The notes: generated by a model from the letters alone, not told the origin. Shown: positions 1 through 63,707, counted from the stretch's first letter. The stretch: 64,000 bases of DNA from an uncultured Verrucomicrobiae bacterium (GCA_963726745.1 CAVSDR010000006.1:512001-576000); one strand, 5' to 3'. Program-made: numbers and translations.

Positions 1-415
1 ATCGGCGAAACAGACCGCCATGTGGCCGTCGGCGATTTGGTAGATCAAGAGGTGGACCGTGAGCGTATCCAGCGCCATGTGACTATCGATGCTGTTCGTG
101 CCACTGACGGTGTAGCTGTTGGCCAGCTCCAGCGCCATCTGGTCAAAGGCGCCGCCGGCATCCGACTGGACGATCCGGGCCGCTTTCGTGTTCGACCCGC
201 TGACAGGCGCGCGGGCCACGATCCAGGCGGTGATCGGCGAGACGCCTAACGAGCGAAAGAGCGGGCGGTTAACGCCGCGCCGGAGCGCTTCCTTGGGGAA
301 ACGAGGCAGCGTATTGATCGTGCGGGCATTCGCCGGCAGCGGAGACTTTCGGTGGACCGGCCTGGGCGGAAACTGCGCAGGCCGCGAGCGCGAGGAGCAG
401 GGCAAAGCGACGCAT
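1..415 (-). CDS. Secreted protein with TonB C-terminal-like segment (runs off window; apparent frameshift near 347)
   Basis: ATG at 415 gives signal peptide MRRFALLLALAACAVSAQA. After a 1-nt shift the frame reads PRFPKEALRRG...ARIVQSDAGGAFDQMALELA, which resembles TonB-C. Translated by hand, not in the ORF track. Confidence 0.5.
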
Positions 416-472
416 AAAACGGCGCCGAAGCTGGAAGAAATCCGCGCAAAAGGCAAGCCTGCGCCGCGGTCG

Positions 473-2826
473 TTAGGCACTTTCCCGCATCCGCACGGGC
501 GAGGCGGCGATTTTATCCAGCACGATCTCTCCTTGCCCATCGAAACGCCCAAAGGCCAGCACCCCCGTGGGGCATTCCTGCACGCAGGCGGAGCAGCGAA
601 CGCACTGCGGGTCTTCCATCGGTCGGCCTTTGTTCGCGAAGCTCATCACGTCGATCCCCTGGTGGCAGACCGAGGTGCAGACGTTGCAGGAGATGCACTT
701 CGATTTGTCCGGAAAAATCCGGTAGCGCGAGAAGCGCGTGTAGATGTGCATCAGCGCCGCCAGCGGACAGCCAAAGCGGCACCAGACCCGCCCGCTGAAC
801 CAAAAATAAAGGCCCACGCCGAGGATCCCGCCCATGAAGATATCGACGCTCCAGGCGTAGCTGAGGAACGGGATGCCCTCGAAAAGTTTGTGATACCAGG
901 CCGTGGCCCACGAGCCCTCGCCAAGCGCCCAGCCGGCGATGCGGAGCGCGAGGATGAGGAAGGCGAAAAGCAACGCCGCCTGGCCCGACCATGTTGACCC
1001 GATTCCAGACCGGGCCGTGCGGCATCTTTTCGCGGTGGGCGTCGCCCATGGTCTCGGCGAGCGCGCCGCAGGAGCAGATCCAGCCGCAGTAGGCGCCTTT
1101 GCCCCAGCGAAAAATAATCAGCGGGATGAGCACGAAAGTCTGGAGGAAGGAAATCCCCAGCCAAAGCCACATCGGATGATCGGTGAAGACGTTGTAGACG
1201 TTCAACGGGAAGGCGAGGATGAAGCCATAGGCCCGCCAGTAGGCGCGCTCGTGGCCTAACGAGCCGTCGTAGCTTTCGAAGAGCTGGTTCGCCAGCCAAT
1301 GTAAGCGGCTGCCCCGGTTCAAACCAGCCGTTGCGCCCCATCCACGGGAGAAGCAGTTCCGGCAAAATAAACAGCGGGATGCATTGCGACGCGATCAAGA
1401 CGCCGGTCTGCCACTTCACGTAAGGCGTGCGCCGCCGCTGAATCCGCCGGACGCCAAAGACAACCACGCAGGTGCAATAGGCCAGGGTGTAATAGAACGC
1501 CGGGTTCCCGAGGCCGCGCTTGATCGTATAAAGCAGGTTGCCCTCGCGGCTCGACCATTCCGCGAGCTTCCCGCCGGCCGCGCCGAAAAGAGCCGGCACA
1601 TTGTAAGGAAACGCCTGCGCCTGGCTGGCCCAGCGTTGCACCGGGAATTCCTGCGGGTGGTTGCTCTTCCAGTGATAAAGAACCACGCAGAAGAGCACAA
1701 AGGCCAGGCAGCTGATCCATGTGCGCGCGTTCCAATCGCCGCGCACTTTCAACCCGCTCCGGCGAAAAAACTCAAGCGGCGCTTCCCTCCCCAACATCGT
1801 AAAGACAACGTCGTTAGGCAGCGTTTTCTCGCTCCCATCTTGCAGGTAAACCTGGTCGGCCTCGATCCGCGTGACCTCGGTCCCGAGCGCCAGTTTGAGC
1901 GACCCGCAATCCTCGCAGCCAAGGCCATCGGTCATGGCCGCATTCACCCGGTCGGAGCTCGGCCGTTCCACCTCCACGTCCGCATGGCGATCGCGCGCCA
2001 GCGCCTCGATCTTGGTGATGTTCTCCGGCTTCGGGCGCGCGAATTCCTTTCTCCGATAACTCAGCGTTACCTCCGCGCCCGCGCGGGCCAACGCGATCGC
2101 GGTCTCCAAAGCCGAGTCGCCGCCGCCGACCACGAGCGCTTTCTGGCCGCTGAATTCATGCGGATCAAAAAGGCGATTCGAAACCTTCTCGAGCTCCTCG
2201 CCAGGGACGTTGAGCTTGCGGAAATTTCCGCTGCGCCCGATGGCCACAAGCACGCGCCGCGCGCGCAGCGGCTCGCCCTCGGCCAGGTGGAGCACGAGCT
2301 CGCCGCCAGTGCGCTCGACCCGCTCGACCCGCGCCGGGGTCACTTCCACGCCCGCGGCTTTTTGCTGCGCCTGCATCTCGCGCAGGAGGTCTTCCTTCAC
2401 CTCGGCTTCGAAATGCAGGCCGCCCTCGAGCTTCATTTCCGTGGGGTAGGTGTAGATCGGTTTGCGCTTCGGAAAGTTGATGACGGTCGAGAAGGTCTCG
2501 GTCGCTTCCAGGATCGCGAAGCGGAGCCCGGCCTTCTTCGCCTCGATCGCCGCGGAGATCCCGGCCACGCCGGCGCCGATGATCGCCAGGTCGAGCGTCT
2601 CGCCCTGGCCTTTCGAAAAATTGCCCTCGCGCAAGATCGCCCGGACCGCGCTCGCCCCGGTGTGCGATGAGAATTTAAGCAGCGGGATGCCGGTGAGATC
2701 TCCGACGATGCGGACGCCCGGAAGATTGGTCGCACCTTCCGCGCCGCTGACCGGGAGCTGCTCGACGGTGCCAGCCGGCCACTGCGTATGCAGCCAATGA
2801 GTGTATCGTCCCAGCAGTCCAGCCAT
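473..2826 (-). CDS. FAD/NAD(P)-dependent thioredoxin-reductase-like oxidoreductase fused to a polytopic membrane 4Fe-4S (NapH/MauN-like) domain; two apparent frameshifts (about 1302 and 985)
   Basis: GAGVAG and GGGDSA dinucleotide motifs in ORF 751..2826. YCGWICSCG in ORF 513..1322. WCRFGCP plus two CxxCxxCxxxC motifs in ORF 473..973. Confidence 0.8.
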
Positions 2827-4825: not shown

Positions 4826-4849
4826 GGCGCCGGCTCTCTTTCTTTCTCC

Positions 4850-6913
4850 ATGGAAGCCATCTCCCTAAACAAACCGGACCTGGTGCGGCGCATGCCGCGG
4901 CATCCGGCCGACAACGCCGGCGAAATCGCCCTCGAACGCGAATGGCTCGTGACCAACGGCCTCGGCGGTTACTCCTCCGGGACGGTCTCGGGGGCGATCA
5001 CGCGGAAGTATCACGGCATCCTCATCGCCGCCCTGCCCGCGCCGCTCGGGCGCATGGTCATGTGGAGTCATGTCTCGGAATTTCTCCGCTTCGCCGATGG
5101 GGAATCGGTCTCGTTAGGCGGCGAGGAACGGGCCCACGGGCAGCTCGACCTGCGCGGGGCCGATTACCTCCAGGAGTTCCGGCTCGAAGATGGACTGCCG
5201 AGCTGGACTTTTCGCGTGCGCGACGTGGTCCTCGAGAAGCGCATTGTCATGCCGCACCTGCAAAACACGGTGCACGTGATCTACCGCTTAAAAGGGCCGG
5301 CCGCTTTGCCCCGGCTGGAGCTGCGCCCGGCCTTCCAATTCCGCCACCATGAAGCGGCGGTCGATGAATCCCTTTCGGCGCCTTACCAAGTGACGGTGGC
5401 CGATGGCCGCTACGAGGTCGCGAGCACGCATGCGGATCTCCCGCCCTGCCGCCTCCAGTTGCATGGCTGCAAGTCGACTTTTCGGGTCGAGCCCGGCTGG
5501 ATCCAGCAGGTGATCTACCGCACGGAACAAGAACGCGGCTACGCCTTTGAAGGCGACCTTTGGACACCCGGGACTTTCGAGGTGGAAGTGCAACCGGAGT
5601 GCGCCGCGACCATGATCGGATCGACCGAGGACTGGGAAATTCCCGACGTCCTCCCGCCAAAGGCCGTCGAACGCGCGGAGGCGGAGCGCCGCGCCCGGCT
5701 CCTTGCGCAAGCCGCGCCCGAAGCGCGCGATGGTTTCCCGGCAGAGCTGGTCTACGCGGCCGATCAATTTGTCATCAAACCGGCTGGCCGGACGCGCGAT
5801 GAAGCGCGGGCGCACGCAGCCGGGGACGAGGTGCGGACGGTGATCGCGGGTTACCATTGGTTCACTGACTGGGGCCGCGACACCATGATCAGCCTGGAGG
5901 GTTTGACCCTAACGACTGGTCGCTGGGTGGAGGCGGGCTACATCCTGCGGACCTTCGCGCATTACGTGCGCGACGGCTTGATTCCAAACATGTTTCCCGA
6001 CGGGAAAAACGAAGGCCTCTACCACACGGCGGACGCGACCCTTTGGTTCTTCCACGCGCTCGGGCGTTACCTCCAGGCGACAGACGACGAGATCACGCTG
6101 CGGCTCCTCTTGCCCACGCTGGTGGAAATCGCGGAAGCGCATCTGCGCGGGACGAAATTCAACATCCACGTCGATCCGGCGGACGGCCTGCTCGCGCAGG
6201 GCGCGGAAGGCTACCAGCTCACCTGGATGGACGCGAAGATGGGCGACTGGGTGGTCACGCCGCGGCGCGGGAAAGCCGTGGAGCTGAACGCGCTTTGGTT
6301 TAACGCGCTCGCGCTTCTCTCGGGTTGGCTGGAACGGGTCCGGAACGCGCCCGACGCAGCGCGCTTCCGCGAGCATGCGCAGCGCGCGCGCGCGTCGTTC
6401 AACGCCCGCTTTTGGAATGAAAGTGCCGGCTATTTGTTCGACGTAGTCGACACTCCGGAAGGAACCGACGACGCCGCCTGCCGGCCGAATCAGATCTTCG
6501 CGCTCTCGCTCGAGCATCCGGTGCTGGACGAACAGCATTGGGCCGCGGTGCTCGCAGTGGTGCAGGAACGCCTGCTCACGCCGGTGGGCCTGCGCTCGCT
6601 TTCCCCGGAGAATCCGGACTACAAACCGACCTATCACGGCGATCTCCGGACGCGCGACGCGGCCTACCATCAAGGCACGGTCTGGGGCTGGCTCATCGGA
6701 CCATTCATCGATGCCTGGCAGAAAGTGCATCCGGACGACAAAGCCGGTGCGCGCCGCTTTCTCGAGCGCTTCCCGGCGCACCTGAGCGAGGCCGGCCTCG
6801 GCTCGATCAGCGAGGTCTTCGACGCGGAGGAACCGCACCGGCCGCGCGGCTGCATCGCGCAGGCGTGGAGTGTGGCGGAAGTGCTGCGCGCCTGGGTGGC
6901 GACGGCGAAGTAA
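4850..6913 (+). CDS. Glycogen debranching enzyme / amylo-alpha-1,6-glucosidase
   Basis: EWLVTNGLGGY N-terminal domain, AGYHWFTDWGRDTMISL, LTWMDAK, YHQGTVW, GCIAQAWSVAE. Confidence 0.9.
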   Translation: MEAISLNKPDLVRRMPRHPADNAGEIALEREWLVTNGLGGYSSGTVSGAITRKYHGILIAALPAPLGRMVMWSHVSEFLRFADGESVSLGGEERAHGQLDLRGADYLQEFRLEDGLPSWTFRVRDVVLEKRIVMPHLQNTVHVIYRLKGPAALPRLELRPAFQFRHHEAAVDESLSAPYQVTVADGRYEVASTHADLPPCRLQLHGCKSTFRVEPGWIQQVIYRTEQERGYAFEGDLWTPGTFEVEVQPECAATMIGSTEDWEIPDVLPPKAVERAEAERRARLLAQAAPEARDGFPAELVYAADQFVIKPAGRTRDEARAHAAGDEVRTVIAGYHWFTDWGRDTMISLEGLTLTTGRWVEAGYILRTFAHYVRDGLIPNMFPDGKNEGLYHTADATLWFFHALGRYLQATDDEITLRLLLPTLVEIAEAHLRGTKFNIHVDPADGLLAQGAEGYQLTWMDAKMGDWVVTPRRGKAVELNALWFNALALLSGWLERVRNAPDAARFREHAQRARASFNARFWNESAGYLFDVVDTPEGTDDAACRPNQIFALSLEHPVLDEQHWAAVLAVVQERLLTPVGLRSLSPENPDYKPTYHGDLRTRDAAYHQGTVWGWLIGPFIDAWQKVHPDDKAGARRFLERFPAHLSEAGLGSISEVFDAEEPHRPRGCIAQAWSVAEVLRAWVATAK

Positions 6914-6920
6914 GCGGCTG

Positions 6921-10201: not shown

Positions 10202-10305
10202 GTTGTAATTAGGTTTCCCGTTGATGGGTAATATTTCAATCGAAGCGTCAAGGCTATTCGGCCTTCCGCGAGCAGTAATTCGACAGCGGCGAAGCTAACG
10301 AGCGC

Positions 10306-13091: not shown

Positions 13092-13305
13092 ACAGGCAGT
13101 CGTTAGGGCAGTTTATCGCACGGGCGGAAAGATTTATCTTTCTTTCTCATTCTGCGTGCACTCGGCAAAAGTTTGATGCAAAATCATGAAATAGGTTGCG
13201 AGCGCGCAGAACTTCGCGTACTTCGTCCGCAGTTTTGGAAGATTGTTCTGGGGGGAACAGCCGCCCTTCATGTCCTTTGGACGTGGGGGGCGGTACTTTT
13301 TTGCC

Positions 13306-13989: not shown

Positions 13990-13998
13990 CCAGCAACT

Positions 13999-20610: not shown

Positions 20611-20623
20611 GCGTTTCCGCTCG

Positions 20624-28932: not shown

Positions 28933-28939
28933 CGACCTC

Positions 28940-47637: not shown

Positions 47638-47641
47638 AACG

Positions 47642-52488: not shown

Positions 52489-53277
52489 ATGAAGTTCGCC
52501 GTGGCCCAGATCTCCTGTGTGGTCGGCGAGGTGGCCGCGAACGTGGCCAAGTTTGCCGCGCTCGCGGCGCAAGCCAAAGCCGCCGGCGCGGAGTGGCTCC
52601 TTCTCCCGGAAATGGCCGACACGGGTTACGTCATGCGGGTTATCCGGGAACGCGCCCAACCCTGGACCAGCGGCGCGGTCCCGGAGCTGCAACGGCTCGC
52701 GCGCGAGCACTCGTTAGGCATCGTCGCCGGCGTTTCCGAGCGGACCGCGGAGGCAATCTATAACACCCAGGTGGCGATCGATCCGCAGGGCGAAATCCGG
52801 GGCCGCTACCGGAAGACCCATCTCTTCGCGCCACCGCCGATCGAGGAGCAGCGCTGCTTTGCCCCGGGCGGGGAACTGGTCGCGCTCGACGCCGGGCCGT
52901 TTCGCTTCGGCCTCGGGATTTGCTACGACCTGCGCTTCCCGGAATTCCATCGCACCCTCGCCTGCGTGCACGGGGCCAATGTGCTGCTTGTTTCCTCGGC
53001 CTGGCCGTTCCCGCGGGTGGAACATCTGCGCACGCTCGCGACCGCGCGCGCGATCGAAAATCAATCCTACGTCTTGCTGTCTAATCGCGTGGGCACAGAC
53101 GACGGCGTGACCTTTTGCGGCAGCTCCGCGATCATCGATCCCGCGGGCACACTCGTGGCCGCGGCTTCGCCCGAGCGCGAGGAGCTGCTCGTGGCCACGC
53201 TTTCCGCGGAACGAAGTGCGCAGGTGCGCGCGGCCATGCCCGTCTTCGAGCATCGCCGGCCAGAGCTCTACCGCTAG
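52489..53277 (+). CDS. Carbon-nitrogen hydrolase (nitrilase/omega-amidase family)
   Basis: LPEM, YRKTHLF, ICYDLRFPE (E-K-C triad), ARAIENQ. Confidence 0.9.
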   Translation: MKFAVAQISCVVGEVAANVAKFAALAAQAKAAGAEWLLLPEMADTGYVMRVIRERAQPWTSGAVPELQRLAREHSLGIVAGVSERTAEAIYNTQVAIDPQGEIRGRYRKTHLFAPPPIEEQRCFAPGGELVALDAGPFRFGLGICYDLRFPEFHRTLACVHGANVLLVSSAWPFPRVEHLRTLATARAIENQSYVLLSNRVGTDDGVTFCGSSAIIDPAGTLVAAASPEREELLVATLSAERSAQVRAAMPVFEHRRPELYR

Positions 53278-55326: not shown

Positions 55327-58161
55327 GTGAATCCAGCCGAATCCACCATTTCGCCGCCTTCGCTCGAGGAGAGTTTGCAGGAGAGCGAGGAACGCCTGCG
55401 CGCGGCATTTAGTCAATCCGTCACCGGGATGGTGATCACCGATCTGCATGGCGTGATCCAGCGGGCAAATGACGCCTTTTGCCGCATCGTTGACCGCCCG
55501 CGGGAAGAGTTGCTCGGGCGCACCTCGGATCACATGACCCCGCCGGACGACCAGAAAAATAACGTCACCGCCATCCGGGAATTGCGCGACGGACTGGTCA
55601 AGAGCGCCATCTTCCACAAGCGCTACCTCCGTCCCTCCGGCGAGGAAGTCTGCACGCGGATCAATCTCTCGCTCGTCCGCAACGCCGCCGGCACGCCGGT
55701 CAATCTCATGGCCACGGTCGAGGATGTGACCGCGCAGCGCCGCGTCCAGGCTGCCCTGGAAGAACGCGAGGAACGCCTGCGCCTCATCTTCGACAGCATC
55801 ACCGACTACGCCATCATCACGATCGATCCCGCCGGGGCGGTGATCGATTGGAATCCTGGAGCGCAGGAAATTTTCGGCTATCGCGCCGAGGAAATCATCG
55901 GGCAGCCATGGGAGGTGCTGTGGACATCGGAAGATCGCGCTGCGAAAGAGCCGGCCAAAGTCCAGACCGCGGCCTTGGCCTCGGGCCGCGCGCATAACGA
56001 GCGCTGGCACCTGCGGAAAGATGGCGGGCGCTTTTTTGCCAGCGGGATGCTGCGCCCGATTCGCACGAGCAATGGAGAGCTCCGCGGCTTTACCAAGATC
56101 TGTCGCGACGTGACGGCGCAACGCCAGGCCGAGAGCGAACTCGCGCAGGCGCGTCTGCAGGCCGAGCGCGCGCTCGAGGAGGAGCGCGCGCGCCTCGCGG
56201 AAGTTTTCCAGCATTCGCCCTCCTTCCTCGCGATTTCACGCGGGCCGGAGCACGTCTTCGAATTTGCGAACGAGCGGTATCTCGAGATCAGCGGACATCG
56301 CGACATCCTCCAGAAAACTGCGCGCGAAGCCTTCCCGGAGATCCAAGGCCAGGGCTTTTTCGAAATCCTCGATCGGGTCTACCAGACGGGCGAACCCTTC
56401 GAAGGCAAGGAGATGAGCGTCTACCTGCAACGGCAACCAGGGCAGCCGCCGGAGGAATGCTTCATCGACCTGGTTTACATGCCGATGCGCGATGCCACCG
56501 GCGCGGTCACCGGCATTTTCACTCACGGGATCGACATCACCGCGCGCAAGCTGGCCGAGGAGTCGCTCGAGCAACAGGCGCGCACCTTCGATGTCCTCCT
56601 GTCGTCCATCCAGGATTACGTCTTCCTTTTCGATCGCGAGGGCCGCTTCACCTACGCGAATAAAATGCTGCTCGATCTGTGGGGCGTCCCGGCCTCGCGC
56701 CTGCCCTTGTCGATGCTCGAGGATCTGCACTACGACCCCGAGCTCGAGCAATTTCTCATGAGCGATCTGCGCGCGGTCTTCCAGACGGCGCGACCGGTCA
56801 TGCGGGAAGTCCCTTACGTGAGCCCCACCGGCATCTCCGGGCACTACGAGTATATCCTCGCACCGGTGCTCAGCCCGGCCGGCGAAGTGCTGAGCGTCGC
56901 CGGCACCAGCCGCAACATCTCCGAGCGCAAGCGCGTGGAGCTGGAGCGCGAGCAGCTCCTCGCGAGCGAACGCGCCGCCCGCACTGAGGCCGAGCGCGCG
57001 AGCCAGATGAAGGACGATTTCCTCGCCACCCTCAGCCATGAGCTTCGCACGCCGCTCAACGCCATCCTGGGCTGGGCCAATCTCCTCGGGGCCGATGCCA
57101 ACCCGGCCGATGTGCGCGAAGGCGTGCAGGTGATCGAGCGGAACGCCCGCGCCCAGGCGCGCATCATTGACGACCTCCTCGACATGAGCCGGATCATGTC
57201 GGGTAAGATCCGCCTCGACGTGCAGCGCACCGATCTCGCGGCGGTCATTGAGTCCGCCCTCGAGACCGTGCGACCGGCGGCGCTCGCGAAAAAAATTCGC
57301 CTCCAGAGCATCCTCGATCCGCTGGCCCAGCCGGTCACTGGCGACCCGAGCCGGCTGCAGCAGGTCTTTTGGAATTTACTCAGCAACGCGGTCAAATTCA
57401 CCCCCGCCGGTGGGCGCGTGCAGGTGCTGCTCGAGCGGGTGAACTCCCACCTCGAAGTCAGCGTGGTCGACACCGGGGAAGGAATCTCCGCGCAATTCCT
57501 CCCGCATGTGTTCGATCGCTTCCGCCAGGCCGATGGCTCGACCACCCGCGCACACGGCGGCCTTGGCCTGGGCCTCGCGATTGTGAAGCAGCTCGTGGAA
57601 CTCCATGGCGGCAGCGTTTCCGTGCGCAGCGGCGGGCGCGACTGCGGCTCCACCTTTACCGTTTCGCTCCCGCTCGGCGCGGTGCGGCCGGAAGACCACG
57701 GCCCGCCCGAGCGCCGGCACCCACGCTCACCCGATGTCGTCCCGGTCGAGGCCGTGGCCGGGATCGATTTAGCCGGCATCATCGTCCTGATCGTGGACGA
57801 TGAAGCGGACGCCCGCTCCGTGGTCGCCCGCAGCCTGGAGAACGCCGGTGCCACCGTCCACGCGGCCCCGTCCGCGGCCGAGGCGCTGGCTCTTTTGGAG
57901 CGGGAACGGCCGCATGTCTTGATCAGCGACATCGGGATGCCGGGCGAAGATGGCTATGCCCTTATCCGAAGCGTCCGCTCGTTAGGCGCGGAACAGGGCG
58001 GCCACGTCCCCGCGATCGCGCTCACCGCTTATGCCCGCACCGAGGATCGGATGAAAGCCATCCTGGCCGGCTTCCAGATGCACGTGGCCAAGCCGGTCGA
58101 GATCGCGGAACTCCTCGCGATGGTCGCGAGCCTCGCGGGTCGCACCGGCCCCACGAGCTAG
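55327..58161 (+). CDS. Hybrid multi-PAS sensor histidine kinase / response regulator
   Basis: Four PAS/PAC segments, LSHELRTPLNAI, NLLSNAVKFT, DTGEG, GGLGLGL, receiver VDD...SDIGMP...KP; no TM segments. Confidence 0.92.
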   Translation: MNPAESTISPPSLEESLQESEERLRAAFSQSVTGMVITDLHGVIQRANDAFCRIVDRPREELLGRTSDHMTPPDDQKNNVTAIRELRDGLVKSAIFHKRYLRPSGEEVCTRINLSLVRNAAGTPVNLMATVEDVTAQRRVQAALEEREERLRLIFDSITDYAIITIDPAGAVIDWNPGAQEIFGYRAEEIIGQPWEVLWTSEDRAAKEPAKVQTAALASGRAHNERWHLRKDGGRFFASGMLRPIRTSNGELRGFTKICRDVTAQRQAESELAQARLQAERALEEERARLAEVFQHSPSFLAISRGPEHVFEFANERYLEISGHRDILQKTAREAFPEIQGQGFFEILDRVYQTGEPFEGKEMSVYLQRQPGQPPEECFIDLVYMPMRDATGAVTGIFTHGIDITARKLAEESLEQQARTFDVLLSSIQDYVFLFDREGRFTYANKMLLDLWGVPASRLPLSMLEDLHYDPELEQFLMSDLRAVFQTARPVMREVPYVSPTGISGHYEYILAPVLSPAGEVLSVAGTSRNISERKRVELEREQLLASERAARTEAERASQMKDDFLATLSHELRTPLNAILGWANLLGADANPADVREGVQVIERNARAQARIIDDLLDMSRIMSGKIRLDVQRTDLAAVIESALETVRPAALAKKIRLQSILDPLAQPVTGDPSRLQQVFWNLLSNAVKFTPAGGRVQVLLERVNSHLEVSVVDTGEGISAQFLPHVFDRFRQADGSTTRAHGGLGLGLAIVKQLVELHGGSVSVRSGGRDCGSTFTVSLPLGAVRPEDHGPPERRHPRSPDVVPVEAVAGIDLAGIIVLIVDDEADARSVVARSLENAGATVHAAPSAAEALALLERERPHVLISDIGMPGEDGYALIRSVRSLGAEQGGHVPAIALTAYARTEDRMKAILAGFQMHVAKPVEIAELLAMVASLAGRTGPTS

Positions 58162-58561: not shown

Positions 58562-58951
58562 ATGCCCTGTCCCGACCCTGCCATCTGCCCGCTCTGCGGC
58601 GCGCCTAACGAGTGCCGGCTCGCCGCCGACCCGGGCGCAGCGATTGCCACCTGCTGGTGCGCCCGCGAAGATTTTCCCCCGTCGCTCCTGGAGCGCGCGG
58701 GGCAAAAAGAGTCGGCCGGCTGCATTTGTCGCCGCTGTCTCGTCCAAGCGCGTTTCGCGGAAGCGCGCACGCGCCCCGCGCCGCCGCTGCAGGCGGGCGA
58801 TGCCTACCTCGAGGGCGGCTTGCTTGTCTTCACGGCACAAGGTCACCGGCGTCGCGGCTATTGCTGCGGGAGCGGCTGCCGGCATTGCCCCTTCGATGCG
58901 CTGGAGCGCTCGGTCGCGGGCGCTCCGCCGCGACGCCCGGCTTCTCGCTAA
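58562..58951 (+). CDS. Cysteine-rich CWC-family domain fused to DUF5522-like domain
   Basis: CPLCGAPNEC...CWC...CICRRC, then YLEGGLLVFT...RRGYCCGSGCRHCPF. Confidence 0.8.
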   Translation: MPCPDPAICPLCGAPNECRLAADPGAAIATCWCAREDFPPSLLERAGQKESAGCICRRCLVQARFAEARTRPAPPLQAGDAYLEGGLLVFTAQGHRRRGYCCGSGCRHCPFDALERSVAGAPPRRPASR

Positions 58952-60393
58952 AGCGGATACGGCAAGGTCGCTCCGAGCACGGTCACCAGCACGAGAACCA
59001 CCGGCACGAGCACGAGGAAAACGATGAAGGTGTAGCCCATGACATCGCGCGCCCGCAATCCAAAGAGCCCCAGGATTGGCAGCATCCAGAAGGGCTGGAT
59101 TAAATTAGCCAGCGCCTCGCCCAGATCATAAGCCGCCACCACCCAGCCGAGGTGGACTTTTAATTCATGCGCCGCCGCCATCACATACGGCGCTTCCACG
59201 ACCCACTTCGAGCCGCCGGAAGGCACAAAGACTCCCAGCACCGCCGAGTAGGTGGCCACGATCGCCGGGAACGTTTTCGCATTCGAGACGCCGACAAAAG
59301 CGTGCGCAATCTGCTGGCTAAGATGCGTGGAGGTGATCACGCCTGCGATCCCGGCGTAGAACGGAAACTGCAGGATCACACCCCAGACCGCCGGCGTAGC
59401 CGCTTGCACCGCATGCATCAGCCGCGCCGGCGTGCGGTGCAGGAGGAAGCCTAACAAGAGGAAGGTGAGGTTCACGATGTTAAGCGTGATCGCGCTCAAA
59501 GGTTCGCCCGCCTGGAGGAAATAGCGCACGAGATAAGTCGCTCCCAGGAGCACGATCAGCCAGTTCAGAATCGGCGAATGCTCCAGCCACTGGCCCGGCG
59601 TCGGTCGCGCCACCGGCGCCGGCGGTTCCAGCTCCGACTTCCGGAGATCGATCCCAAGATCGCGCGCAGTTTTGCCGCTTCCGGCAGGCGGAGTAACCAG
59701 CCACATGACCGCGGTCACAAGCGCGATTTCCACCACTACTGAGGCCAGGCTTTGCCAGAGAAAAATCGTGTGCTGGAAGGAAATGATCCCGCCGGGAACG
59801 ATCCCGCCCTGGGCCACGATCTCGCGGATCTGCGGTTGCAGCGCACCCGGCGTGGCCATCTGCAGCGCGGCCGAGCCGCTCAAGCCTTGCGCCCAGATGC
59901 TCCCCAGCCCGAGGAAGCTGGCCGCGGCCAGCGCGCGGTAGTCGACCCCTTCCACCCGTCGCGCGATCTCCCGCGCCAGCACCGCGCTGAAGATTAAACT
60001 AAAGCCCCAGTTGAACCACGAGCTTGCCATGGCGAAAAACGCCACCAGCGCGACCGCCCCGCGCGGCGTCGCCGGCCAGGAAGCAAGCGCGCGGATCACC
60101 CGACCGACTGGCGCCGAGGTCGCGAGCACGTGGCCGGTGATAATAACCAGCGACATCTGGAGCGTGAAGGGAATCAATTCCCACAAGCCTTTCCCCCAGG
60201 CGTCCACCACCTCGGGGAAAGTCGAAGGCGTCAACGCAACTCCCGCCACCACCACGATGACCGTCGCCAGGAGCGCAAAGATGAATGCATCTGGCACCCA
60301 GCGCTCGGTCCACGCGGTCATCGCCAGGGCCAGGCGCGCGAGGAGGCCCAGCGGGTTCGCGGGGCTTTTCTCTGCGCCGGCCACGGAGCTCAT
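58948..60393 (-). CDS. atoE: Short-chain fatty acid transporter (AtoE family)
   Basis: ERWVPDAFIFA, QMSLVIITGH, NWG, QFPFYAGI, FVPSGGSKW, NLIQPFW. Confidence 0.88.
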   Translation of the reverse strand: MSSVAGAEKSPANPLGLLARLALAMTAWTERWVPDAFIFALLATVIVVVAGVALTPSTFPEVVDAWGKGLWELIPFTLQMSLVIITGHVLATSAPVGRVIRALASWPATPRGAVALVAFFAMASSWFNWGFSLIFSAVLAREIARRVEGVDYRALAAASFLGLGSIWAQGLSGSAALQMATPGALQPQIREIVAQGGIVPGGIISFQHTIFLWQSLASVVVEIALVTAVMWLVTPPAGSGKTARDLGIDLRKSELEPPAPVARPTPGQWLEHSPILNWLIVLLGATYLVRYFLQAGEPLSAITLNIVNLTFLLLGFLLHRTPARLMHAVQAATPAVWGVILQFPFYAGIAGVITSTHLSQQIAHAFVGVSNAKTFPAIVATYSAVLGVFVPSGGSKWVVEAPYVMAAAHELKVHLGWVVAAYDLGEALANLIQPFWMLPILGLFGLRARDVMGYTFIVFLVLVPVVLVLVTVLGATLPYPL

Positions 60394-60414
60394 GCTGCGG
60401 TCGAAAACGAAGCG

Positions 60415-60540
60415 CTACTGAAAAAGAGCCGGCAACTTGAGCACGGTATTATAGACGCCCCACGCGAGTGGGATTCCCACCACCGTCCAGGAAAGCAGGA
60501 GCATGAGGCCGTTGCCGGATGAAGTCCCTGTCTCGTTCAT
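60415..60540 (-). CDS. Small single-TM protein accompanying the OFA-family MFS transporter, 41 aa
   Basis: Hand translation MNETGTSSGNGLMLLLSWTVVGIPLAWGVYNTVLKLPALFQ; ATGA overlap with the MFS stop; not in the ORF track. Confidence 0.8.
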   Translation of the reverse strand: MNETGTSSGNGLMLLLSWTVVGIPLAWGVYNTVLKLPALFQ

Positions 60541-61889
60541 GAATGCTTCGCTCCCTGGAAATGGTGACGCTCATCCACTGGCCGCACCAGCAAATTGCAG
60601 ATCAAGCCGATGACCAGCAACCCCGCCATGAGATACATCGTCGGCGCGTAGAGGCCCACGCCGCTGGCGCCGCGGGCCTTCAGGTATTCGCGAATGTAAT
60701 TCACCAGCACCGGACCGAGCACCCCTGCGGCCGACCAGGCAGTGAGTAAACGTCCATGGATCGCGCCCACCTGCATGACACCGAACAAGTCTTTCAAGTA
60801 GGCCGGCACGGTGGCAAAGCCGCCGCCATACATGCTGATAATGACCGCGCAGACGGCGACAAAGAAAACCACATGCCCGCTCCGGCCAGCCAGCGGGATC
60901 AGGCAGTAAAGGATCGCGCCTAACAAGAGGTAGATCACGTAGACCGTCTTCCGCCCGAGGTAATCGCTTAGGGAAGACCAGATGAAACGCCCGGCCATGT
61001 TGAAAAGGCTCAGGAGCGCGACAAACCCACCCGCCGCCGCCGCCATTACCTTGCCCGGAAACATCTCCTGAATCATCGGTGAAGCCTGCTCGAGAATGCC
61101 GATGCCGGCGGTGACGTTGAAGCAAAGCACCACCCAAAGCAGCCAGAACTGCGGCGTGCGCACCGCCTGGCTCACGAGGACATTCGCGGTTGTGATCATC
61201 CGCCGCGGCTGCGTCGGCGCGACATAGCCTTCCGGCTTCCAGCCTTCCGCCGGCACGCGGATAATGAAGGAACCAAAGAGCATGTAGCAGAAGTAGATCA
61301 CGCCGAGCGCGAGGAAGCTCTCGGCCACGCCGGTGCTGGTCGCGGACTTAAAGGTATTCATCAGGAGCAGGCTAAGGTTCGACCCGATAAAAGCGCCCCC
61401 GCCGAAGCCCATGATCGCCATGCCCGTGGCCATCCCCGGCCGGTCCGGGAACCATTTCACCAGGGTCGAGACCGGCGAAATATATCCCAGTCCCAGCCCG
61501 CAACCGCCGAGCACTCCGTAGCCGAGATAGATCACCCAGAGCTGGTGCCACCAAACGCCGAAAGCGGAAATGACGAAGCCGCCGCCAAAACAACACGCCG
61601 CCGCCAGCATGGTTTTCCGCGGGCCCACGCGTTCAACCCACGTCCCAAAAACCGCCGCGGACGCACCCAGGAAAAGAATCGCGATGCTAAAGATCCAGGC
61701 GAGCTGCGGCTGCGTCCAATCGCCCGCGGCCGGCGCAGTGATCCCGAGGATGCGCGTCAGCGGGAGCTTGAAAACACTGAAGGCGTAGACCTGCCCGATG
61801 GAGAGATGGACCGCGAGCGCTGCCGGCGGGACCAGCCAGCGAGTGAACCCCGGCCTGGCTACGGTGTGTTCCCGGTCGAAAAAGCTCAT
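60537..61889 (-). CDS. OFA (oxalate/formate antiporter) family MFS transporter
   Basis: HLSIGQVYAFSVF, GYISPVSTLVKWFPDRPGMATG, YGGGFATVPAY, IHGRLLTAWS. Confidence 0.9.
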   Translation of the reverse strand: MSFFDREHTVARPGFTRWLVPPAALAVHLSIGQVYAFSVFKLPLTRILGITAPAAGDWTQPQLAWIFSIAILFLGASAAVFGTWVERVGPRKTMLAAACCFGGGFVISAFGVWWHQLWVIYLGYGVLGGCGLGLGYISPVSTLVKWFPDRPGMATGMAIMGFGGGAFIGSNLSLLLMNTFKSATSTGVAESFLALGVIYFCYMLFGSFIIRVPAEGWKPEGYVAPTQPRRMITTANVLVSQAVRTPQFWLLWVVLCFNVTAGIGILEQASPMIQEMFPGKVMAAAAGGFVALLSLFNMAGRFIWSSLSDYLGRKTVYVIYLLLGAILYCLIPLAGRSGHVVFFVAVCAVIISMYGGGFATVPAYLKDLFGVMQVGAIHGRLLTAWSAAGVLGPVLVNYIREYLKARGASGVGLYAPTMYLMAGLLVIGLICNLLVRPVDERHHFQGAKHS

Positions 61890-62821
61890 CAGTTTCCCTT
61901 TGCCTCCAGCTTCCACTTCTTCGGCAGCTTTTGTTTCAGCGTTAGCACCGGTTCGAAGAGGTCACCCACCTCCTCTACGCGCGCGAGCACCTGCTCGGGG
62001 GTGAAACTCAGCAGCGCCGGCTTCCTTTTCTTTCGGCACTGCTCGACCTCCTCCCAGCTTACCGGCGTGGAAACTGTCGGCTGCTCCTTCGCCCGGAGCG
62101 AGTAAACGCTCACCGTCGTCTTGTGCTCGTCGTTTTGACTCCAGTCGACCAGCACTTTTCCCTCGCGCAATTTCTTCAGCATCTTATGCACGACCAGCTT
62201 CGGGTGCGCCTGCTCCAGGTGCTCGGCGAGGGCTCGGGCCAGCGCCTTGGTCTGATCAAAAATAGCCGGCGAGTTCAGCGGCACGTAGACCTGGAGACCC
62301 TTCGAGCCGCTCGTCTTGGCAAAGCTCTCGAGCTTCATTTCGCCTAACAAGTCGCGCAGCAAAAGGCCCACCTCGCAGCATTGCACCATGTCCGCCGGCG
62401 CGCCCGGGTCGAGGTCGAAAACCATCATCGTGGGCTTGGCGACGTTCCGCTTCTTGGCCAGCGATGTGTGCAGCTCGATGTCCGCCAGGTTGGCCGCCCA
62501 GACGAGCGTCGGCAGATCCTGCGCCAGGCAGTAATACATGTCGCGCTGGTTCCCTTCGCTCCAGACCTTGGCTGTCTTCACCCAGCCTGGCCGATGCGAC
62601 GGGCAGTTCTTCTCGTAGAAAAACTCCTCCTCCACGCCATTTGGGTAACGCTTTAAGGTCAGCGGCCGGTCCTGCAGATGCGGGAGGAGCACCGGCCCGA
62701 TGCGGACGTAGTAATCGATCATCTCTCCCTTGGTGAATCCGGTCTTGGGCCAGAGCACCTTCTCCAGGTTCGAGACCGGCAGCTTCCGTCCCGCCACGAT
62801 CAATTCCGCTTTCGTACCCAT
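61889..62821 (-). CDS. Stand-alone LigD polymerase (primase-polymerase) domain
   Basis: SNLEKVLWP, RPLTLKRYPNG, VFDLDP, KTSGSKGLQV, DWSQN, YSLRA, STPVSWEE. Confidence 0.9.
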   Translation of the reverse strand: MGTKAELIVAGRKLPVSNLEKVLWPKTGFTKGEMIDYYVRIGPVLLPHLQDRPLTLKRYPNGVEEEFFYEKNCPSHRPGWVKTAKVWSEGNQRDMYYCLAQDLPTLVWAANLADIELHTSLAKKRNVAKPTMMVFDLDPGAPADMVQCCEVGLLLRDLLGEMKLESFAKTSGSKGLQVYVPLNSPAIFDQTKALARALAEHLEQAHPKLVVHKMLKKLREGKVLVDWSQNDEHKTTVSVYSLRAKEQPTVSTPVSWEEVEQCRKKRKPALLSFTPEQVLARVEEVGDLFEPVLTLKQKLPKKWKLEAKGN

Positions 62822-62961
62822 GCTTCAGCGAAAGAATCGCAGCCCACCGCGCCCCCGCGTGTCACCCTCGTCGAGACTAACCCGCCGGCTCGGGCCGATC
62901 GTGCAAAACATGGCGGACCGCGCGCTTAAGCATCCGCCCTTGAACGTTGCGGGCATTATGC

Positions 62962-63435
62962 CTAACGAGGCTTGCTCTGTCGGAATGTCCGGCAGCAGAA
63001 AACCGGCAAGGTGCGTGGCTCGCCTTCGAAGATCGTGGTGTTTGTCCGAATCTGCGTCGCTCCCATGCGCGCATAGAAGCCGGCGGCGTGCGGGTCCGAC
63101 TCAATCTCAAAACTCTCATAGCCCCATCCGTAGGCGGATCGCTGCGAGTGGAGAAAAAGCGCGCGCCCAATTCCGCGACCCATTTCCGCAGGTCTCACCC
63201 AAAGATGCTCGAGACGGAGCGCGCCGTCTTCCTGGATGAAGGCGGCAAACCCAAGGGTGCGCCCTCCCGTCCGCGCCACGAAAGTCTCGTGCGTCGCAAT
63301 AAACTCCGGCGTCACTGTCAGGAGCGTGTGCCATTGCCGCAGCCACGCTTCCGGGTATCCCCAGTGGCGCTTGGCCGCGAAGGCGATCTCCGTGAGGATT
63401 TCAGCCTCGGCCGGAAGCGCAGGCGTGATTTTCAC
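62962..63435 (-). CDS. GNAT N-acetyltransferase
   Basis: AKRHWGY, LWVRPAEMGRGIGRAL, SDPHAAGFYARMG. Confidence 0.88.
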   Translation of the reverse strand: MKITPALPAEAEILTEIAFAAKRHWGYPEAWLRQWHTLLTVTPEFIATHETFVARTGGRTLGFAAFIQEDGALRLEHLWVRPAEMGRGIGRALFLHSQRSAYGWGYESFEIESDPHAAGFYARMGATQIRTNTTIFEGEPRTLPVFCCRTFRQSKPR

Positions 63436-63707
63436 AAAAGGGTTGGACTACCTAACGAGACCCCAAGGCTCGAAGGGATCATGCGCCGCGCGCCGTCGAA
63501 GGAGCGCCCAATAAGAGGAGAGGCACGAGAAGAAACCCGCATCCAGGGCCAGAAGTCGTCCGCCAGGGTATCAGCCTTCTGCATCGTGATCACGACCCGG
63601 AGTAATCCGATCACCGGGAGGCACACGCCCACCATCCCGGCGGACACCGTAAAGATGTGGATGCAGAGGTCGTCTTCGAGAGGAATTCGTGATCCCGTGG
63701 GACGCAT
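63432..63707 (-). CDS. Hypothetical membrane protein, apparently frameshifted or truncated
   Basis: Hydrophobic HIFTVSAGMVGVCLPVIGLL segment; protein-like character is lost after about 63555. Confidence 0.4.
   Translation of the reverse strand: MRPTGSRIPLEDDLCIHIFTVSAGMVGVCLPVIGLLRVVITMQKADTLADDFWPWMRVSSRASPLIGRSFDGARRMIPSSLGVSLGSPTLL

What the first reader, a model, noticed from the sequence alone, without database searches (positions are those of the whole stretch)
245..63459. Dispersed non-palindromic 9-mer CTCGTTAGG embedded throughout coding DNA: candidate undescribed DNA-uptake-sequence-like signal
Seen: exact CTCGTTAGG on + at 5110, 12517, 19262, 22480, 23881, 25084, 25884, 26225, 31997, 37263, 38071, 38713, 47330, 48174, 48916, 51149, 52710, 57978 (18 copies). 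On - (CCTAACGAG) at 245, 1255, 13884, 14523, 15375, 21639, 27279, 36851, 44398, 49073, 58604, 62961, 63451 (13 copies). Fifteen further copies keep the core TCGTTAG (e.g. 469, 1810, 5908, 13099, 14077, 28928, 34277, 41898), and CCTAACAAG variants occur at about 59450, 60919 and 62343. A mononucleotide estimate at about 66% GC predicts roughly 0.4 exact copies per window, so enrichment is about 70-fold (rough hand calculation). It lies inside conserved genes (dnaE, recF, glnA, egtB, egtD, Hsp70, bcp) in different frames and strands: TCG-TTA-GGC (SLG), CTC-GTT-AGG (LVR), CCT-AAC-GAG (PNE), CTA-ACG-AGC (LTS). This imposes TTA, CTA and AGG codons otherwise rare here, so it is not a protein-level effect. 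Known: this is how Neisseriaceae DUS and Pasteurellaceae USS behave (non-palindromic, both strands, inside core genes). Cyanobacterial HIP1 is similarly abundant but palindromic. Inference: a self-DNA uptake tag, a nucleoid/partition protein site, or a modification-driven motif. I do not recognise it as described.
Basis: partly seen in the sequence, partly recalled or inferred. Interest (0 to 1): 0.9.

Follow-up and report, generated by a model that had tools for sequence, protein, structure and literature searches.

The report
Genome-wide self word in soil Verrucomicrobia
An uncultured soil bacterium has written the ten-letter DNA word CTCGTTAGGC thousands of times through its own genes against its codon habits, much like the DNA-uptake tags of Neisseria and Haemophilus; relatives carry the same or other such words, and this word is also one end of the family's integron cassette sites.

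Summary
All 31 exact CTCGTTAGG copies lie at the stated places, against 0.21 expected from shuffles, and 15 more copies keep the core. The full word is [C/G/T]T[C/T]GTTAG[G/c]C.

- **Abundance.** The genome holds 2,025 cores, and CTCGTTAGGC is its commonest 10-mer. In genes it is 47- to 71-fold above a synonymous-codon shuffle.
- **Placement.** It lies on both strands equally, without replication polarity. It is denser between genes and scarce in acquired islands.
- **Distribution.** The word is confined to one family of Chthoniobacterales and patchy within it.
- **Other words.** Other lineages of the family carry an unrelated word (AAGATCGACA). This genome also has a private third word (GYYGGCTAW). 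Some lineages have none.
- **Integron link.** The word equals one arm of the family's integron attC sites.

My best reading (confidence 0.38) is an uptake-sequence-like self tag read by an unidentified factor and built up by directional fixation. The rivals are a HIP1-like methylation-linked word, a recombinase-read site and a Chi-like tag.

My paper searches found no description of it. Earlier notes of this scan report CGTTAGGC in Gemmatimonadaceae and another motif in a Verrucomicrobiota genome; I did not test those reports.

The parts
245..253 (-). M1 copy, exact CTCGTTAGG; intergenic
470..476 (+). M1 core TCGTTAG (GTCGTTAGGC)
1255..1263 (-). M1 exact; in oxidoreductase gene 751-2826
1811..1817 (+). 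M1 core (GTCGTTAGGC)
5110..5118 (+). M1 exact; in glycogen debranching gene
5909..5915 (-). M1 core (GTCGTTAGGG)
10295..10301 (-). M1 core (CTCGTTAGCT)
12517..12525 (+). M1 exact; antisense in recF
13100..13106 (+). M1 core (GTCGTTAGGG)
13884..13892 (-). M1 exact; shared with relative L008
14078..14084 (-). M1 core overlapping the dnaE stop codon
14523..14531 (-). M1 exact in dnaE on a Ser-Leu; the same site carries the word in many word-rich relatives
15375..15383 (-). M1 exact in dnaE (Y-S-L-G); relatives read TCA CTC GCG and similar
19262..19270 (+). M1 exact in glnA region; Gly replaces the Ser/Arg of relatives
20621..20627 (+). M1 core at a gene boundary
21639..21647 (-). M1 exact
22480..22488 (+). 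M1 exact
23881..23889 (+). M1 exact in egtB-like gene; shared with L008 and L013
25084..25092 (+). M1 exact in egtD region; shared with L008
25884..25892 (+). M1 exact; shared with L008
26225..26233 (+). M1 exact; shared with L008
27279..27287 (-). M1 exact
27622..27628 (+). M1 core (CTCGTTAGAC)
28548..28556 (+). tolerated variant CTTGTTAGG
28929..28935 (-). M1 core at the end of the aldehyde dehydrogenase gene
31997..32005 (+). M1 exact
32461..32467 (-). M1 core (CTCGTTAGAC)
34278..34284 (-). M1 core (GTCGTTAGGC)
34608..34614 (-). M1 core (CTCGTTAGCC)
36851..36859 (-). M1 exact
37263..37271 (+). M1 exact in Hsp70 gene
38071..38079 (+). M1 exact in Hsp70 region
38713..38721 (+). M1 exact
41899..41905 (+). 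M1 core (TTCGTTAGGC)
44398..44406 (-). M1 exact
47330..47338 (+). M1 exact
47777..47783 (+). M1 core (CTCGTTAGCG)
48174..48182 (+). M1 exact; its TAG (48179-48181) is the stop codon of ORF 46409-48181
48916..48924 (+). M1 exact
49073..49081 (-). M1 exact
51096..51102 (-). M1 core (CTCGTTAGCC)
51149..51157 (+). M1 exact
52710..52718 (+). M1 exact
57978..57986 (+). M1 exact in PAS histidine kinase gene
58604..58612 (-). M1 exact
59450..59458 (-). tolerated variant (CCTAACAAG on +)
60919..60927 (-). tolerated variant (CCTAACAAG on +)
62343..62351 (-). tolerated variant (CCTAACAAG on +)
62961..62969 (-). M1 exact
63451..63459 (-). M1 exact

Best explanation
CTCGTTAGGC (invariant core T[C/T]GTTAG; here M1) is a genome-wide 'self word' of a clade inside one family of soil Chthoniobacterales. 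I read it as a site on double-stranded DNA, functional in either orientation, that an unidentified sequence-specific factor recognises. It has been written into resident DNA by directional fixation of word-creating changes. These changes are mostly synonymous (Ser-Leu becomes TCG TTA), some are conservative replacements, and some sit at stop codons. The most likely way this works is that of DUS and USS. The factor would belong to DNA uptake or transformation. Fragments that bear the word are taken up and recombined preferentially, so the word spreads by molecular drive (or by selection for exchange with kin), and DNA that arrived recently lacks it. Sister lineages use another word (AAGATCGACA), and this species has added a private one (A-N4-GYYGGCTAW). 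Integron cassettes of the family carry M1 in every attC site, which would make cassette DNA uptake-proficient. Shown: enrichment, codon cost, orientation independence, even spacing, island depletion, clade distribution, conservation among word-rich genomes, accelerated change against word-poor ones, and identity with the attC arm.
For: (1) Abundance. There are 960 exact 9-mers (433 +, 527 -), with the next base C in 85%. There are 1,312 TCGTTAGGC and 820 CTCGTTAGGC, the latter the commonest 10-mer. (2) Against a synonymous-codon shuffle in called genes, TCGTTAGGC is 908 against 19.3 +/- 3.2 and CTCGTTAGGC is 594 against 8.4 +/- 2.1. In an unbiased scan of all 8-mers the top words all belong to M1. 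(3) All four stop-free frames are used: 413, 81, 213 and 197. Of all TTA codons, 616 of 2,845 lie in M1. (4) There is no replication polarity: + and - are about equal whatever the sign of GC skew. Summed over the 31 word-rich genomes the strands hold 41,867 and 42,322 copies. (5) The word is denser outside genes, 0.72-0.81 per kb against about 0.51 per kb, and it favours the last tenth of genes (205 against about 137 per decile). The stop codon of 263 of 2,559 called genes lies inside it. (6) Close pairs are scarce: 2.5% of 1,305 gaps are under 200 bp against 7.5% expected. (7) Word-free stretches (10 of 7 kb or more, against 2.1 expected) are O-antigen/EPS clusters, a Gabija-like OLD+UvrD pair, a C5-methylase/Z1 island and secreted subtilases. 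(8) Distribution: 24 of 24 same-genus genomes are enriched, with 138-2,412 copies against 30-118 for the reversed word; 31 of 121 family genomes are at 3-fold or more; 298 genomes of other families of the phylum hold 18 copies or fewer. (9) Sites are shared with word-rich relatives: 7 of 14 with L008 against 18% for control 7-mers, and 6 of 8 for L024 with L026 against 21%. Sites are over-diverged against word-poor relatives: 0 of 15 with one mismatch or fewer, against 32%. (10) The core is sharp and the flanks are soft: single changes at T, G, T, T, A, G give 0-8 copies, while the flanks tolerate 54-237. (11) ComEC, DprA, a ComEA-like HHH_3 gene and three secretins are present. (12) Natural transformation feeds cassette recruitment by chromosomal integrons in Vibrio cholerae (PMC12614218, abstract read).
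Against: No uptake or competence has been shown for any member, and the organisms are uncultured. ComEC is found in 115 of 121 family genomes whether or not they are word-rich, so the machinery does not track the word. Three of four genomes sampled from the genera that showed neither M1 nor M3 have no hyper-abundant 9-mer at all. M1 and AAGATCGACA are unrelated words, not dialects differing by a few bases as in Neisseriaceae. One genus carries both at over 1 per kb, and G000 carries two, which needs more than one reader. Inverted pairs that could serve as terminators are not enriched: 22 within 200 bp against about 48 expected. The identity of M1 with the attC arm, and the report (untested here) of the same word in another phylum, are not predicted by a plain uptake model. 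No receptor candidate was identified.
Confidence: 0.38

Rival explanations
1. A HIP1-like word. A non-palindromic counterpart of the cyanobacterial Highly Iterated Palindromes, tied to an accessory DNA methyltransferase or another changeable DNA-reading enzyme. It would be created by a repair 'ratchet' that extends an inner enzyme site, and/or kept for a chromosome-level function.
For: Density and enrichment fall in the HIP1 range: HIP1 is at 0.2-2.73 per kb and 16- to 317-fold (PMC5861425, section 17 read), and here the words reach 1.58 per kb (M1, G089) and 1.71 per kb (M3, G090). HIP1 too has lineage-specific alternates and genomes with two words (PMC5861425, sections 17 and 25). In Elhai's survey each alternate HIP goes with a matching methyltransferase, and one-letter deviations sit at the outer positions (PMC4390886, abstract and passages). 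Here too the deviations sit at the outer positions, and near-cognate NCGTTAG is depleted, 96 observed against 282 in the null. Patchiness, word-free lineages, several words per genome and a species-private word are typical of accessory enzymes. The core TCGTTAG has an A at the last-but-one place, as MmeI/PglX-type sites do (recalled, not from a call).
Against: No cognate enzyme was found. G000 has no MmeI-type methylase domain and no Vsr. Its N6_N4 methylase is family-wide, in 114 of 121 genomes, and so does not track any word. The two HsdM-like genes look broken or truncated, and the C5 methylase sits in a word-free island. Specific words of 9-10 bp are longer than usual methyltransferase sites (general knowledge). 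Periodicity was not tested.
Confidence: 0.22
2. An integron-linked site. M1 is an R-box-type site (GTTRRRY plus three bases) read by the integron integrase or a related tyrosine recombinase. The dispersed copies would be products of recombinase-driven short-patch conversion, or would be kept as landing or docking sites for cassettes.
For: M1 contains GTTAGGC, a match to the integron core GTTRRRY (consensus named in the papers listed). The reverse complement of M1, GCCTAACGAG, is the conserved R'' arm of the attC-like sites of this family. It is in at least 16 sites of the G000 array at C6:736.3-744.9 kb. It is also beside intI in G139, G056, G140 and G051. These sites fold as R box, spacer and L box. 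Integron integrases pass the curated cut-off in 70 of 121 family genomes and in 0 of 14 control genomes. IntI can insert cassettes at genomic sites outside integrons (bioRxiv 10.1101/2022.09.11.507474, passages read). Earlier notes of this scan report the same word, again equal to the local attC core, in Gemmatimonadaceae (not tested here).
Against: G000 and G024 are word-rich, yet no IntI was found in them (best hit in G000 80 bits against a cut-off of 265). Word-poor G019 and G021, and most of g24 and g31, do have IntI. The dispersed copies have no attC-like flanks (logo) and no paired partner. The R' arm reads CTGGTTAGGC, a variant that is not enriched genome-wide (12 copies). The published attG consensus is only GWT. 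M2 and M3 show no convincing relation to attC, so this reading would leave them unexplained. No known recombinase chemistry writes a 10-bp word without indels.
Confidence: 0.15
3. A Chi-like self tag. The word attenuates a degradative helicase-nuclease, so that resident DNA is repaired and foreign DNA is destroyed.
For: The word is over-represented in resident DNA, scarce in acquired islands and lineage-specific. Equal numbers on both strands could suit two-ended breaks (inference).
Against: There is no replication-oriented skew. No RecC was found, and the only PDDEXK_1 hit is a 470-aa ORF, far shorter than AddA or AddB (genome 94.7% complete). Enrichment of 47- to 71-fold at a codon cost far exceeds that of known Chi sites (recalled).
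Confidence: 0.05
4. Not a DNA-level signal: a by-product of codon or peptide usage, a miniature mobile repeat, or an assembly or basecalling artefact.
For: SLG (TCG TTA GGC) is the commonest coding context, 413 of 904 genic copies.
Against: The synonymous shuffle removes the word. Antisense frames carry 410 of the 904 genic copies. The flanks carry no repeat consensus. The word is seen in dozens of independently assembled genomes.
Confidence: 0.01

Closest known systems
DNA uptake sequence (DUS) of Neisseriaceae (10-12 nt, dialects; receptor is the minor pilin ComP; recalled; PMC2397512 seen in search listing only)
   Same: A non-palindromic word of about 10 nt with an invariant core and soft flanks. 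It lies on both strands, inside core genes, and is denser between genes. It is scarce in acquired DNA and shared by a clade with variation between lineages.
   Different: No uptake has been shown. There are no inverted-pair terminators. The alternative words are unrelated rather than dialects. There are two words per genome, and some lineages have none. No ComP-like receptor was identified. The phylum is different.
Uptake signal sequence (USS) of Pasteurellaceae (9-nt core with flanks; recalled; PMC1939737 seen in search listing only)
   Same: A core of 7-9 nt with weaker extended context. The density is about one per 1.7-2.6 kb. Close pairs are scarce and the spacing is even. It is placed in permissive frames and at gene ends.
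   Different: The same differences as for DUS. In addition, the one-off core variants are nearly absent here.
HIP1 and alternate HIPs of cyanobacteria (PMC5861425 sections 17 and 25; PMC4390886 abstract and passages)
   Same: Hyper-abundance of 16-fold or more at 0.2-2.7 per kb, in genes and spacers. Sites are conserved between genomes. There are lineage-specific alternates, genomes with two words, and deviations at the outer letters.
   Different: HIPs are palindromes with known cognate methyltransferases. These words are asymmetric, and no cognate enzyme was found.
Integron attC R box (GTTRRRY / RYYYAAC) and genomic attG sites
   Same: M1 contains GTTAGGC and is identical to the R'' arm plus three spacer bases of this family's attC sites.
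   Different: The dispersed copies are single duplex words without a partner arm or hairpin. No IntI was found in G000. The published attG consensus is only GWT (bioRxiv 10.1101/2022.09.11.507474, passages).
Chi sites (RecBCD/AddAB; recalled)
   Same: A species-specific, over-represented short word that marks resident DNA.
   Different: There is no strand skew, no RecC or AddAB-size enzyme was found, and the enrichment is far higher.

Membership tests
DUS/USS-type uptake sequences | Short non-palindromic word, hyper-abundant on both strands of the resident genome | tested here: met
DUS/USS-type uptake sequences | The word increases uptake or transformation of DNA that bears it | not testable with these tools
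DUS/USS-type uptake sequences | A dedicated receptor (ComP in Neisseriaceae) | not tested
   Only the general uptake genes were looked for: ComEC, DprA, HHH_3 and secretins are present, and ComEC does not track the word
DUS/USS-type uptake sequences | Scarce in recently acquired DNA, shared by related species | tested here: met
   islands; clade
DUS (Neisseriaceae) | Frequent inverted pairs that act as terminators | tested here: not met
   22 convergent pairs within 200 bp against about 48 expected
HIP1-type words | Palindromic octamer | tested here: not met
   M1, M2 and M3 are all asymmetric
HIP1-type words | Enrichment of 16-fold or more at 0.2 per kb or more, in genes and spacers, with sites conserved between genomes | tested here: met
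HIP1-type words | A cognate methyltransferase is present when the word is abundant | tested here: inconclusive
   The one intact conserved methylase is family-wide (114 of 121). No MmeI-type domain and no Vsr. Enzyme specificities cannot be read from sequence
HIP1-type words | Periodic spacing over 10-90 kb | not tested
   Only gap statistics were computed
Chi sites | Orientation skewed with replication | tested here: not met
Chi sites | RecBCD or AddAB present | tested here: not met
   No RecC; one 470-aa PDDEXK_1 ORF only; genome 94.7% complete
Integron attC sites | R'' and R' boxes (RYYYAAC ... GTTRRRY) 50-150 nt apart that fold into a bulged hairpin | tested here: not met
   Not met by the dispersed copies. 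Met only by the array of at least 16 sites at C6:736.3-744.9 kb and a few others
Integron attC sites | An integron integrase in the genome | tested here: not met
   Best TIGR02249 hit in G000 is 80 bits against a cut-off of 265. 70 of 121 family genomes do have one

The most novel reading that the evidence does not exclude
A family of abundant soil Verrucomicrobia runs an uptake-sequence-like self-recognition system, the first outside Proteobacteria. Its word can be swapped (CTCGTTAGGC, AAGATCGACA), doubled or lost between lineages. The main word was taken from, or given to, the integron cassette site. In that case DNA uptake is tuned to the conserved arm of attC, and the cell preferentially scavenges gene cassettes and kin DNA, which couples natural transformation to integron cassette recruitment. 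The same coupling would explain the reported appearance of the same word in Gemmatimonadaceae.
Probability: 0.15. Interest if true: 0.93.

Novelty: new variant of a known kind. Interest (0 to 1): 0.78.

Why it matters
Genome-wide self words are known from very few groups: DUS, USS, HIP1 and Chi. After decades it is still debated what creates and maintains them.

This family offers a natural experiment within one lineage. It contains genomes with one word, with another word, with two words and with none, at densities up to 1.7 per kb.

The identity of the main word with the integron attC arm links two fields, uptake signals and integron cassette traffic, in bacteria that are among the most abundant in soil.

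In practice, the words are strong markers for binning, for spotting foreign DNA and for host assignment of cassettes in soil metagenomes.

Tried and rejected
- **Replication polarity (Chi or KOPS type).** Rejected.
- **Codon or peptide by-product.** Rejected.
- **Repeat element.** Rejected, because the flanks carry no consensus.
- **attC-like pairing of dispersed copies.** Rejected. My first attC finder was too strict and found nothing; reading the contexts directly showed the sites.
- **M3 as part of the attC arm.** Only the 7 letters CAAGATC are shared, and the M3 flanks do not continue the arm. I treat this as chance.
- **M1 and M2 as one composite site.** They are only mildly co-located: 7.1% against 2.7% within 30 bp, partly through the hybrid GGCTAACGAG. 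I treat them as separate words.
- **Tracking genes.** ComEC, IntI and the conserved N6_N4 methylase were each tested. None separates word-rich from word-poor genomes.
- **Public reads.** Only one run holds 8% of the sampled words, as short contigs of related soil organisms. Laying it gave nothing usable on polymorphism at the word.
- **Paper searches.** Searches for the words themselves returned only chance matches in primers and constructs.

Full report
**Observation.** The window holds 31 exact copies of CTCGTTAGG, 18 on + and 13 on -, at exactly the coordinates given. One hundred dinucleotide-preserving shuffles gave a mean of 0.21 and never more than 1. The window is G000:C6:512001-576000 of a 3.41-Mb, 7-contig, 64% G+C assembly that is 94.7% complete. 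CCTAACAAG lies at 59450, 60919 and 62343. Pfam supports dnaE, recF, glnA, an egtB-like gene, egtD and Hsp70 as hosts of copies; bcp was not checked.

**Anatomy of the word (M1).**
- Genome-wide there are 960 exact 9-mers (433 +, 527 -) on all seven contigs, at 0.19-0.48 per kb. The next base is C in 85%.
- TCGTTAGGC occurs 1,312 times and is the third commonest 9-mer. CTCGTTAGGC occurs 820 times and is the commonest 10-mer. The 7-mer core occurs 2,025 times.
- Single changes at the core letters T, G, T, T, A, G leave 0-8 copies each.
- Tolerated changes are the first letter (G 237, T 226), C to T before the G (93), the ninth letter (C 166, T 81, A 54) and the last (G 99).
- The word is therefore [C/G/T]T[C/T]GTTAG[G/c/t/a][C/g], with weak A/T preferences at -1 and -4 and no further flank consensus.
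- With M1 sites held fixed, near-cognate NCGTTAG is depleted, 96 observed against 282 in a codon shuffle.

**Null models.** I called genes with a crude codon-usage caller of my own: 2,559 genes covering 82% of the genome. In these genes a synonymous-codon shuffle gives 19.3 +/- 3.2 TCGTTAGGC against 908 observed. It gives 16.8 +/- 3.7 CTCGTTAGG against 681, and 8.4 +/- 2.1 CTCGTTAGGC against 594. In an unbiased scan of all 8-mers against that null, the top words all belong to M1.

**Placement.**
- Of the 1,312 TCGTTAGGC copies, 904 lie inside called genes. All four stop-free frames are used: sense S-L-G 413, sense L/V-V-R 81, antisense x-L-T-S/N 213, antisense P-N-E/D 197.
- The word holds 616 of 2,845 TTA codons and 291 of 1,477 CTA codons.
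- In 263 of the 2,559 called genes the stop codon lies inside the core: TAA 159 and TAG 104. Stop usage is unusual for this G+C content: TAG 914, TGA 850, TAA 795.
- Density is about 0.51 per kb in genes, with the last tenth of genes favoured (205 against about 137 per decile). It is 0.72-0.81 per kb in all three classes of spacer.
- Plus and minus copies are about equal along every long contig, whatever the sign of GC skew.
- Gaps under 200 bp make up 2.5% of 1,305 gaps, against 7.5% expected.
- Counting M1 and the second word together, 10 stretches of 7 kb or more are word-free, against 2.1 expected. The word-free stretches are O-antigen/EPS glycosyltransferase clusters (C7:60-95 kb, C6:413-438 kb), an OLD-nuclease plus UvrD pair (C2:1-7.9 kb), a C5-methylase/Z1 island (C5:211-219 kb) and secreted subtilases.

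**Who has it.**
- The nearest public records are soil MAGs labelled Chthoniobacterales or Verrucomicrobiota.
- All 24 sampled genomes of the same genus are enriched for TCGTTAGGC, with 138-2,412 copies against 30-118 for the reversed word. Sixteen genomes of other families of the order hold 1-19. Two of the 24, G001 and G008, are unpublished; without them the count is 22 of 22.
- In 121 genomes of the family the core is at 3-fold or more over the reversed word in 31 genomes of 8 genera, and at 2-fold or more in 43. The peak is 1.58 per kb in G089. Strand totals in the 31 are 41,867 and 42,322. Three of the 121 are unpublished (G042, G046, G053); none of them is among the 31.
- Within the genus, G002, G019 and G021 are at 0.7- to 1.6-fold.
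- Among 298 genomes of about 70 other families of the phylum, none has more than 18 copies.
- On a DnaE tree of 59 loci the word-rich loci form one clade, with uneven density inside it.

**Orthologous sites.**
- In dnaE and its neighbours the word sits on conserved peptides. At 15376, Y-S-L-G is TAC TCG TTA GGC, where other relatives read TCA CTC GCG or TCG CTG GCC. At 19263, Gly replaces a variable Ser or Arg.
- Sites are shared with word-rich relatives far above control 7-mers: L008 7 of 14 against 18%, L024 3 of 4, L026 3 of 3, L021 3 of 6. They are not shared with word-poor ones: L050 0 of 9, L001 0 of 5.
- These genomes are only 71-79% identical at the nucleotide level.
- Sites of the other family word (M3, described below) in L013 are more diverged from the word-poor L050 than control windows are. 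None of 15 has one mismatch or fewer, against 32% of controls. That points to directional change at these sites.

**More words.**
- G000 has a second family of enriched words: GGCTAATT 311 against 21.5, and GCTGGCTA 490 against 75. They resolve to A-N4-G-Y-Y-G-G-C-T-A-W (M2). There are 1,590 GYYGGCTAW copies, 1,304 of them with the A.
- M2 too is imposed on conserved peptides, for example V-S-L-A-N-T with GCT AAT where relatives have GCC AAT.
- GGCTAATT is enriched in G000 alone among the 121 genomes, 423 against 34. It is weakly enriched (about 2-fold) in G015 and in the unpublished G046.
- A third, unrelated word, (C)AAGATCGACA(W) (M3), stood out in loci L013 and L039. Family-wide it reaches 0.1 per kb or more, against a median of 0.033, in 42 of 121 genomes of 17 genera. 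The peak is 1.71 per kb in G090. Those genera are almost exactly the ones that lack M1. Only g42 has both (3 genomes).
- I took 100-kb samples of four genomes from genera with neither word. Three have no hyper-abundant 9-mer, and one (G064) has weak M1. The same script recovers M1 and M2 from the window.

**Integron link.**
- Notes of this scan pointed to integron sites, so I tested that lead here.
- G000 carries a cassette array at C6:736.3-744.9 kb, outside the window. It has at least 16 attC-like sites of about 120 bp. Their arms read (C/T)CTAACGAGAACAAGAT(G/C)AGCGAC ... GTTCGCT(G/C)CATCGC(C/A)TGGTTAG(G/A)N. They fold as R box, spacer and L box, although the folding z-scores are modest (-1.1 to -1.7).
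- The R'' arm GCCTAACGAG is the exact reverse complement of M1.
- The same attC type lies beside intI in G139 (g41), G140 (g44), G056 (g32) and G051 (g27). The last two are rich in M3 and poor in M1.
- Integron integrases pass the TIGR02249 cut-off in 70 of 121 family genomes and in 0 of 14 control genomes, but not in G000, G024 or G015. By genus: g1 7 of 9, g19 3 of 5, g41 7 of 8, g42 3 of 4, g34 5 of 6, g44 5 of 7, g22 1 of 8, g24 6 of 8, g31 6 of 8.
- The dispersed M1 copies are single words. Convergent pairs within 200 bp number 22 against about 48 expected. About 20 attC-like arms stand against 2,025 cores. The R' arm variant CTGGTTAGGC is not enriched (12 copies).
- The match of a 10-mer to a conserved attC arm is too specific for chance, but its direction is open.

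**Machinery.**
- Present in G000: ComEC, DprA, a 103-aa HHH_3 ORF and three secretins.
- ComEC is in 115 of 121 family genomes regardless of words.
- Not found: Vsr, RecC, an AddAB-size nuclease and an MmeI-type methylase.
- The methylases are two HsdM-like genes, one split across frames, a C5 enzyme in an island and an N6_N4 enzyme. The last is conserved in 114 of 121 genomes and therefore tracks no word.

**Interpretation.**
- The data establish a DNA-level, orientation-free, clade-restricted word. It is built up by directional change in resident DNA and kept where relatives are also word-rich. That is how DUS and USS behave, and equally how HIP1 behaves apart from symmetry.
- I favour an uptake-type self tag (0.38). 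Asymmetric words that are equal on both strands, evenly spaced, richer in spacers and at gene ends, and absent from imported DNA are its signature. Transformation is also known to feed cassette recruitment by chromosomal integrons (PMC12614218, abstract), which gives the attC identity a function.
- Against this reading stand the unrelated alternative words, the genomes with two words, the word-free lineages that keep ComEC, and the lack of any receptor.
- A HIP-like, enzyme-linked origin (0.22) fits the patchiness better but lacks an enzyme.
- A recombinase-read site (0.15) explains the attC identity, but not M2 or M3, nor word-rich genomes without IntI.
- A Chi-like tag (0.05) lacks both skew and enzyme.

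**Literature.**
- The words themselves return only chance primer matches.
- 'DNA uptake sequence' with 'Verrucomicrobia' gives three unrelated papers. 'Udaeobacter' with 'natural competence' gives one.
- I read sections 17 and 25 of PMC5861425, the abstract and passages of PMC4390886, passages of PMC2843746 and of bioRxiv 10.1101/2022.09.11.507474, and the abstract of PMC12614218.
- PMC1939737, PMC2397512, PMC13756078 and bioRxiv 10.1101/2024.09.10.611283 were seen in search listings only.
- Facts on ComP, USS spacing, Chi enrichment and MmeI/PglX sites are recalled. No supplements were consulted.

**Limits.**
- Gene calls are my own crude ones.
- Relatives are MAGs of 60-100% completeness.
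- The reversed-word control is poor for M3, because it contains CTAG, so I used the family median instead.
- The reports on Gemmatimonadaceae come from unchecked notes of this scan.

Noticed in passing
window, e.g. 9681 (+), 12754 (-), 13986 (-), 22913 (-), 26823 (-); 11 GGCTAATT and about 43 GGCTAA in the window: Second hyper-abundant word of this genome, A-N4-GYYGGCTAW(TT). There are 1,590 copies genome-wide. The diagnostic 8-mer GGCTAATT is enriched in this species alone among 121 family genomes.
   Followed up: yes
relatives: L013, L039 (dnaE loci); G066, G090, G107, G045 and others: Third, unrelated word (C)AAGATCGACA(W), at up to 1.71 per kb. It is enriched in 42 of 121 family genomes, almost exclusively those without M1. 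Genus g42 has both.
   Followed up: yes
G000:C6:736300-744900 (outside the window; L113 covers 738001-752000); also C4:150-151 kb and C2:59-60.5 kb: Integron-type cassette array with at least 16 attC-like sites and small cassettes, with no integron integrase found in the assembly (a CALIN). A weak integrase-like fragment lies at C2:58736-58894, next to two attC-like arms.
   Followed up: partly
family-wide: Integron integrases pass the curated cut-off in 70 of 121 genomes of this family (0 of 14 control genomes), often at contig ends. The family is very rich in integrons.
   Followed up: partly
genome-wide; window examples 14078-14084, 22485-22487, 48179-48181: Ten percent of called genes (263 of 2,559) end on a stop codon that lies inside M1. 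Stop usage is TAG 914, TGA 850, TAA 795, which is unusual for a 64% G+C genome.
   Followed up: partly
window 18008-19433 and 36997-38869: glnA and Hsp70 appear as two overlapping ORFs each (18008-19036 with 18756-19433; 36997-38490 with 38048-38869). This suggests frameshifts or assembly indels. The MFS and LigT domains are fused in ORF 46409-48181.
   Followed up: no
G000:C2:1-7900; C5:211601-219285: Word-free defence islands: an OLD-family nuclease plus a UvrD helicase (Gabija-like pair), and a C5 DNA methylase next to a Z1-domain protein.
   Followed up: partly
G000:C3:980948-982039: An N6_N4 DNA methylase conserved in 114 of 121 family genomes at about 60-75% identity; a core orphan methylase of unknown specificity.
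   Followed up: partly
genome-wide: CCAACGCCA (208 copies) comes from tandem CCAACG hexamer arrays, not from a dispersed word.
   Followed up: no
L075 (distant Verrucomicrobia MAG, dnaE locus): The words CCAATAGA (15 copies) and CTGACAAG/GCTTGTCA (13 copies) in 16.8 kb may be another lineage-specific word or a repeat.
   Followed up: no
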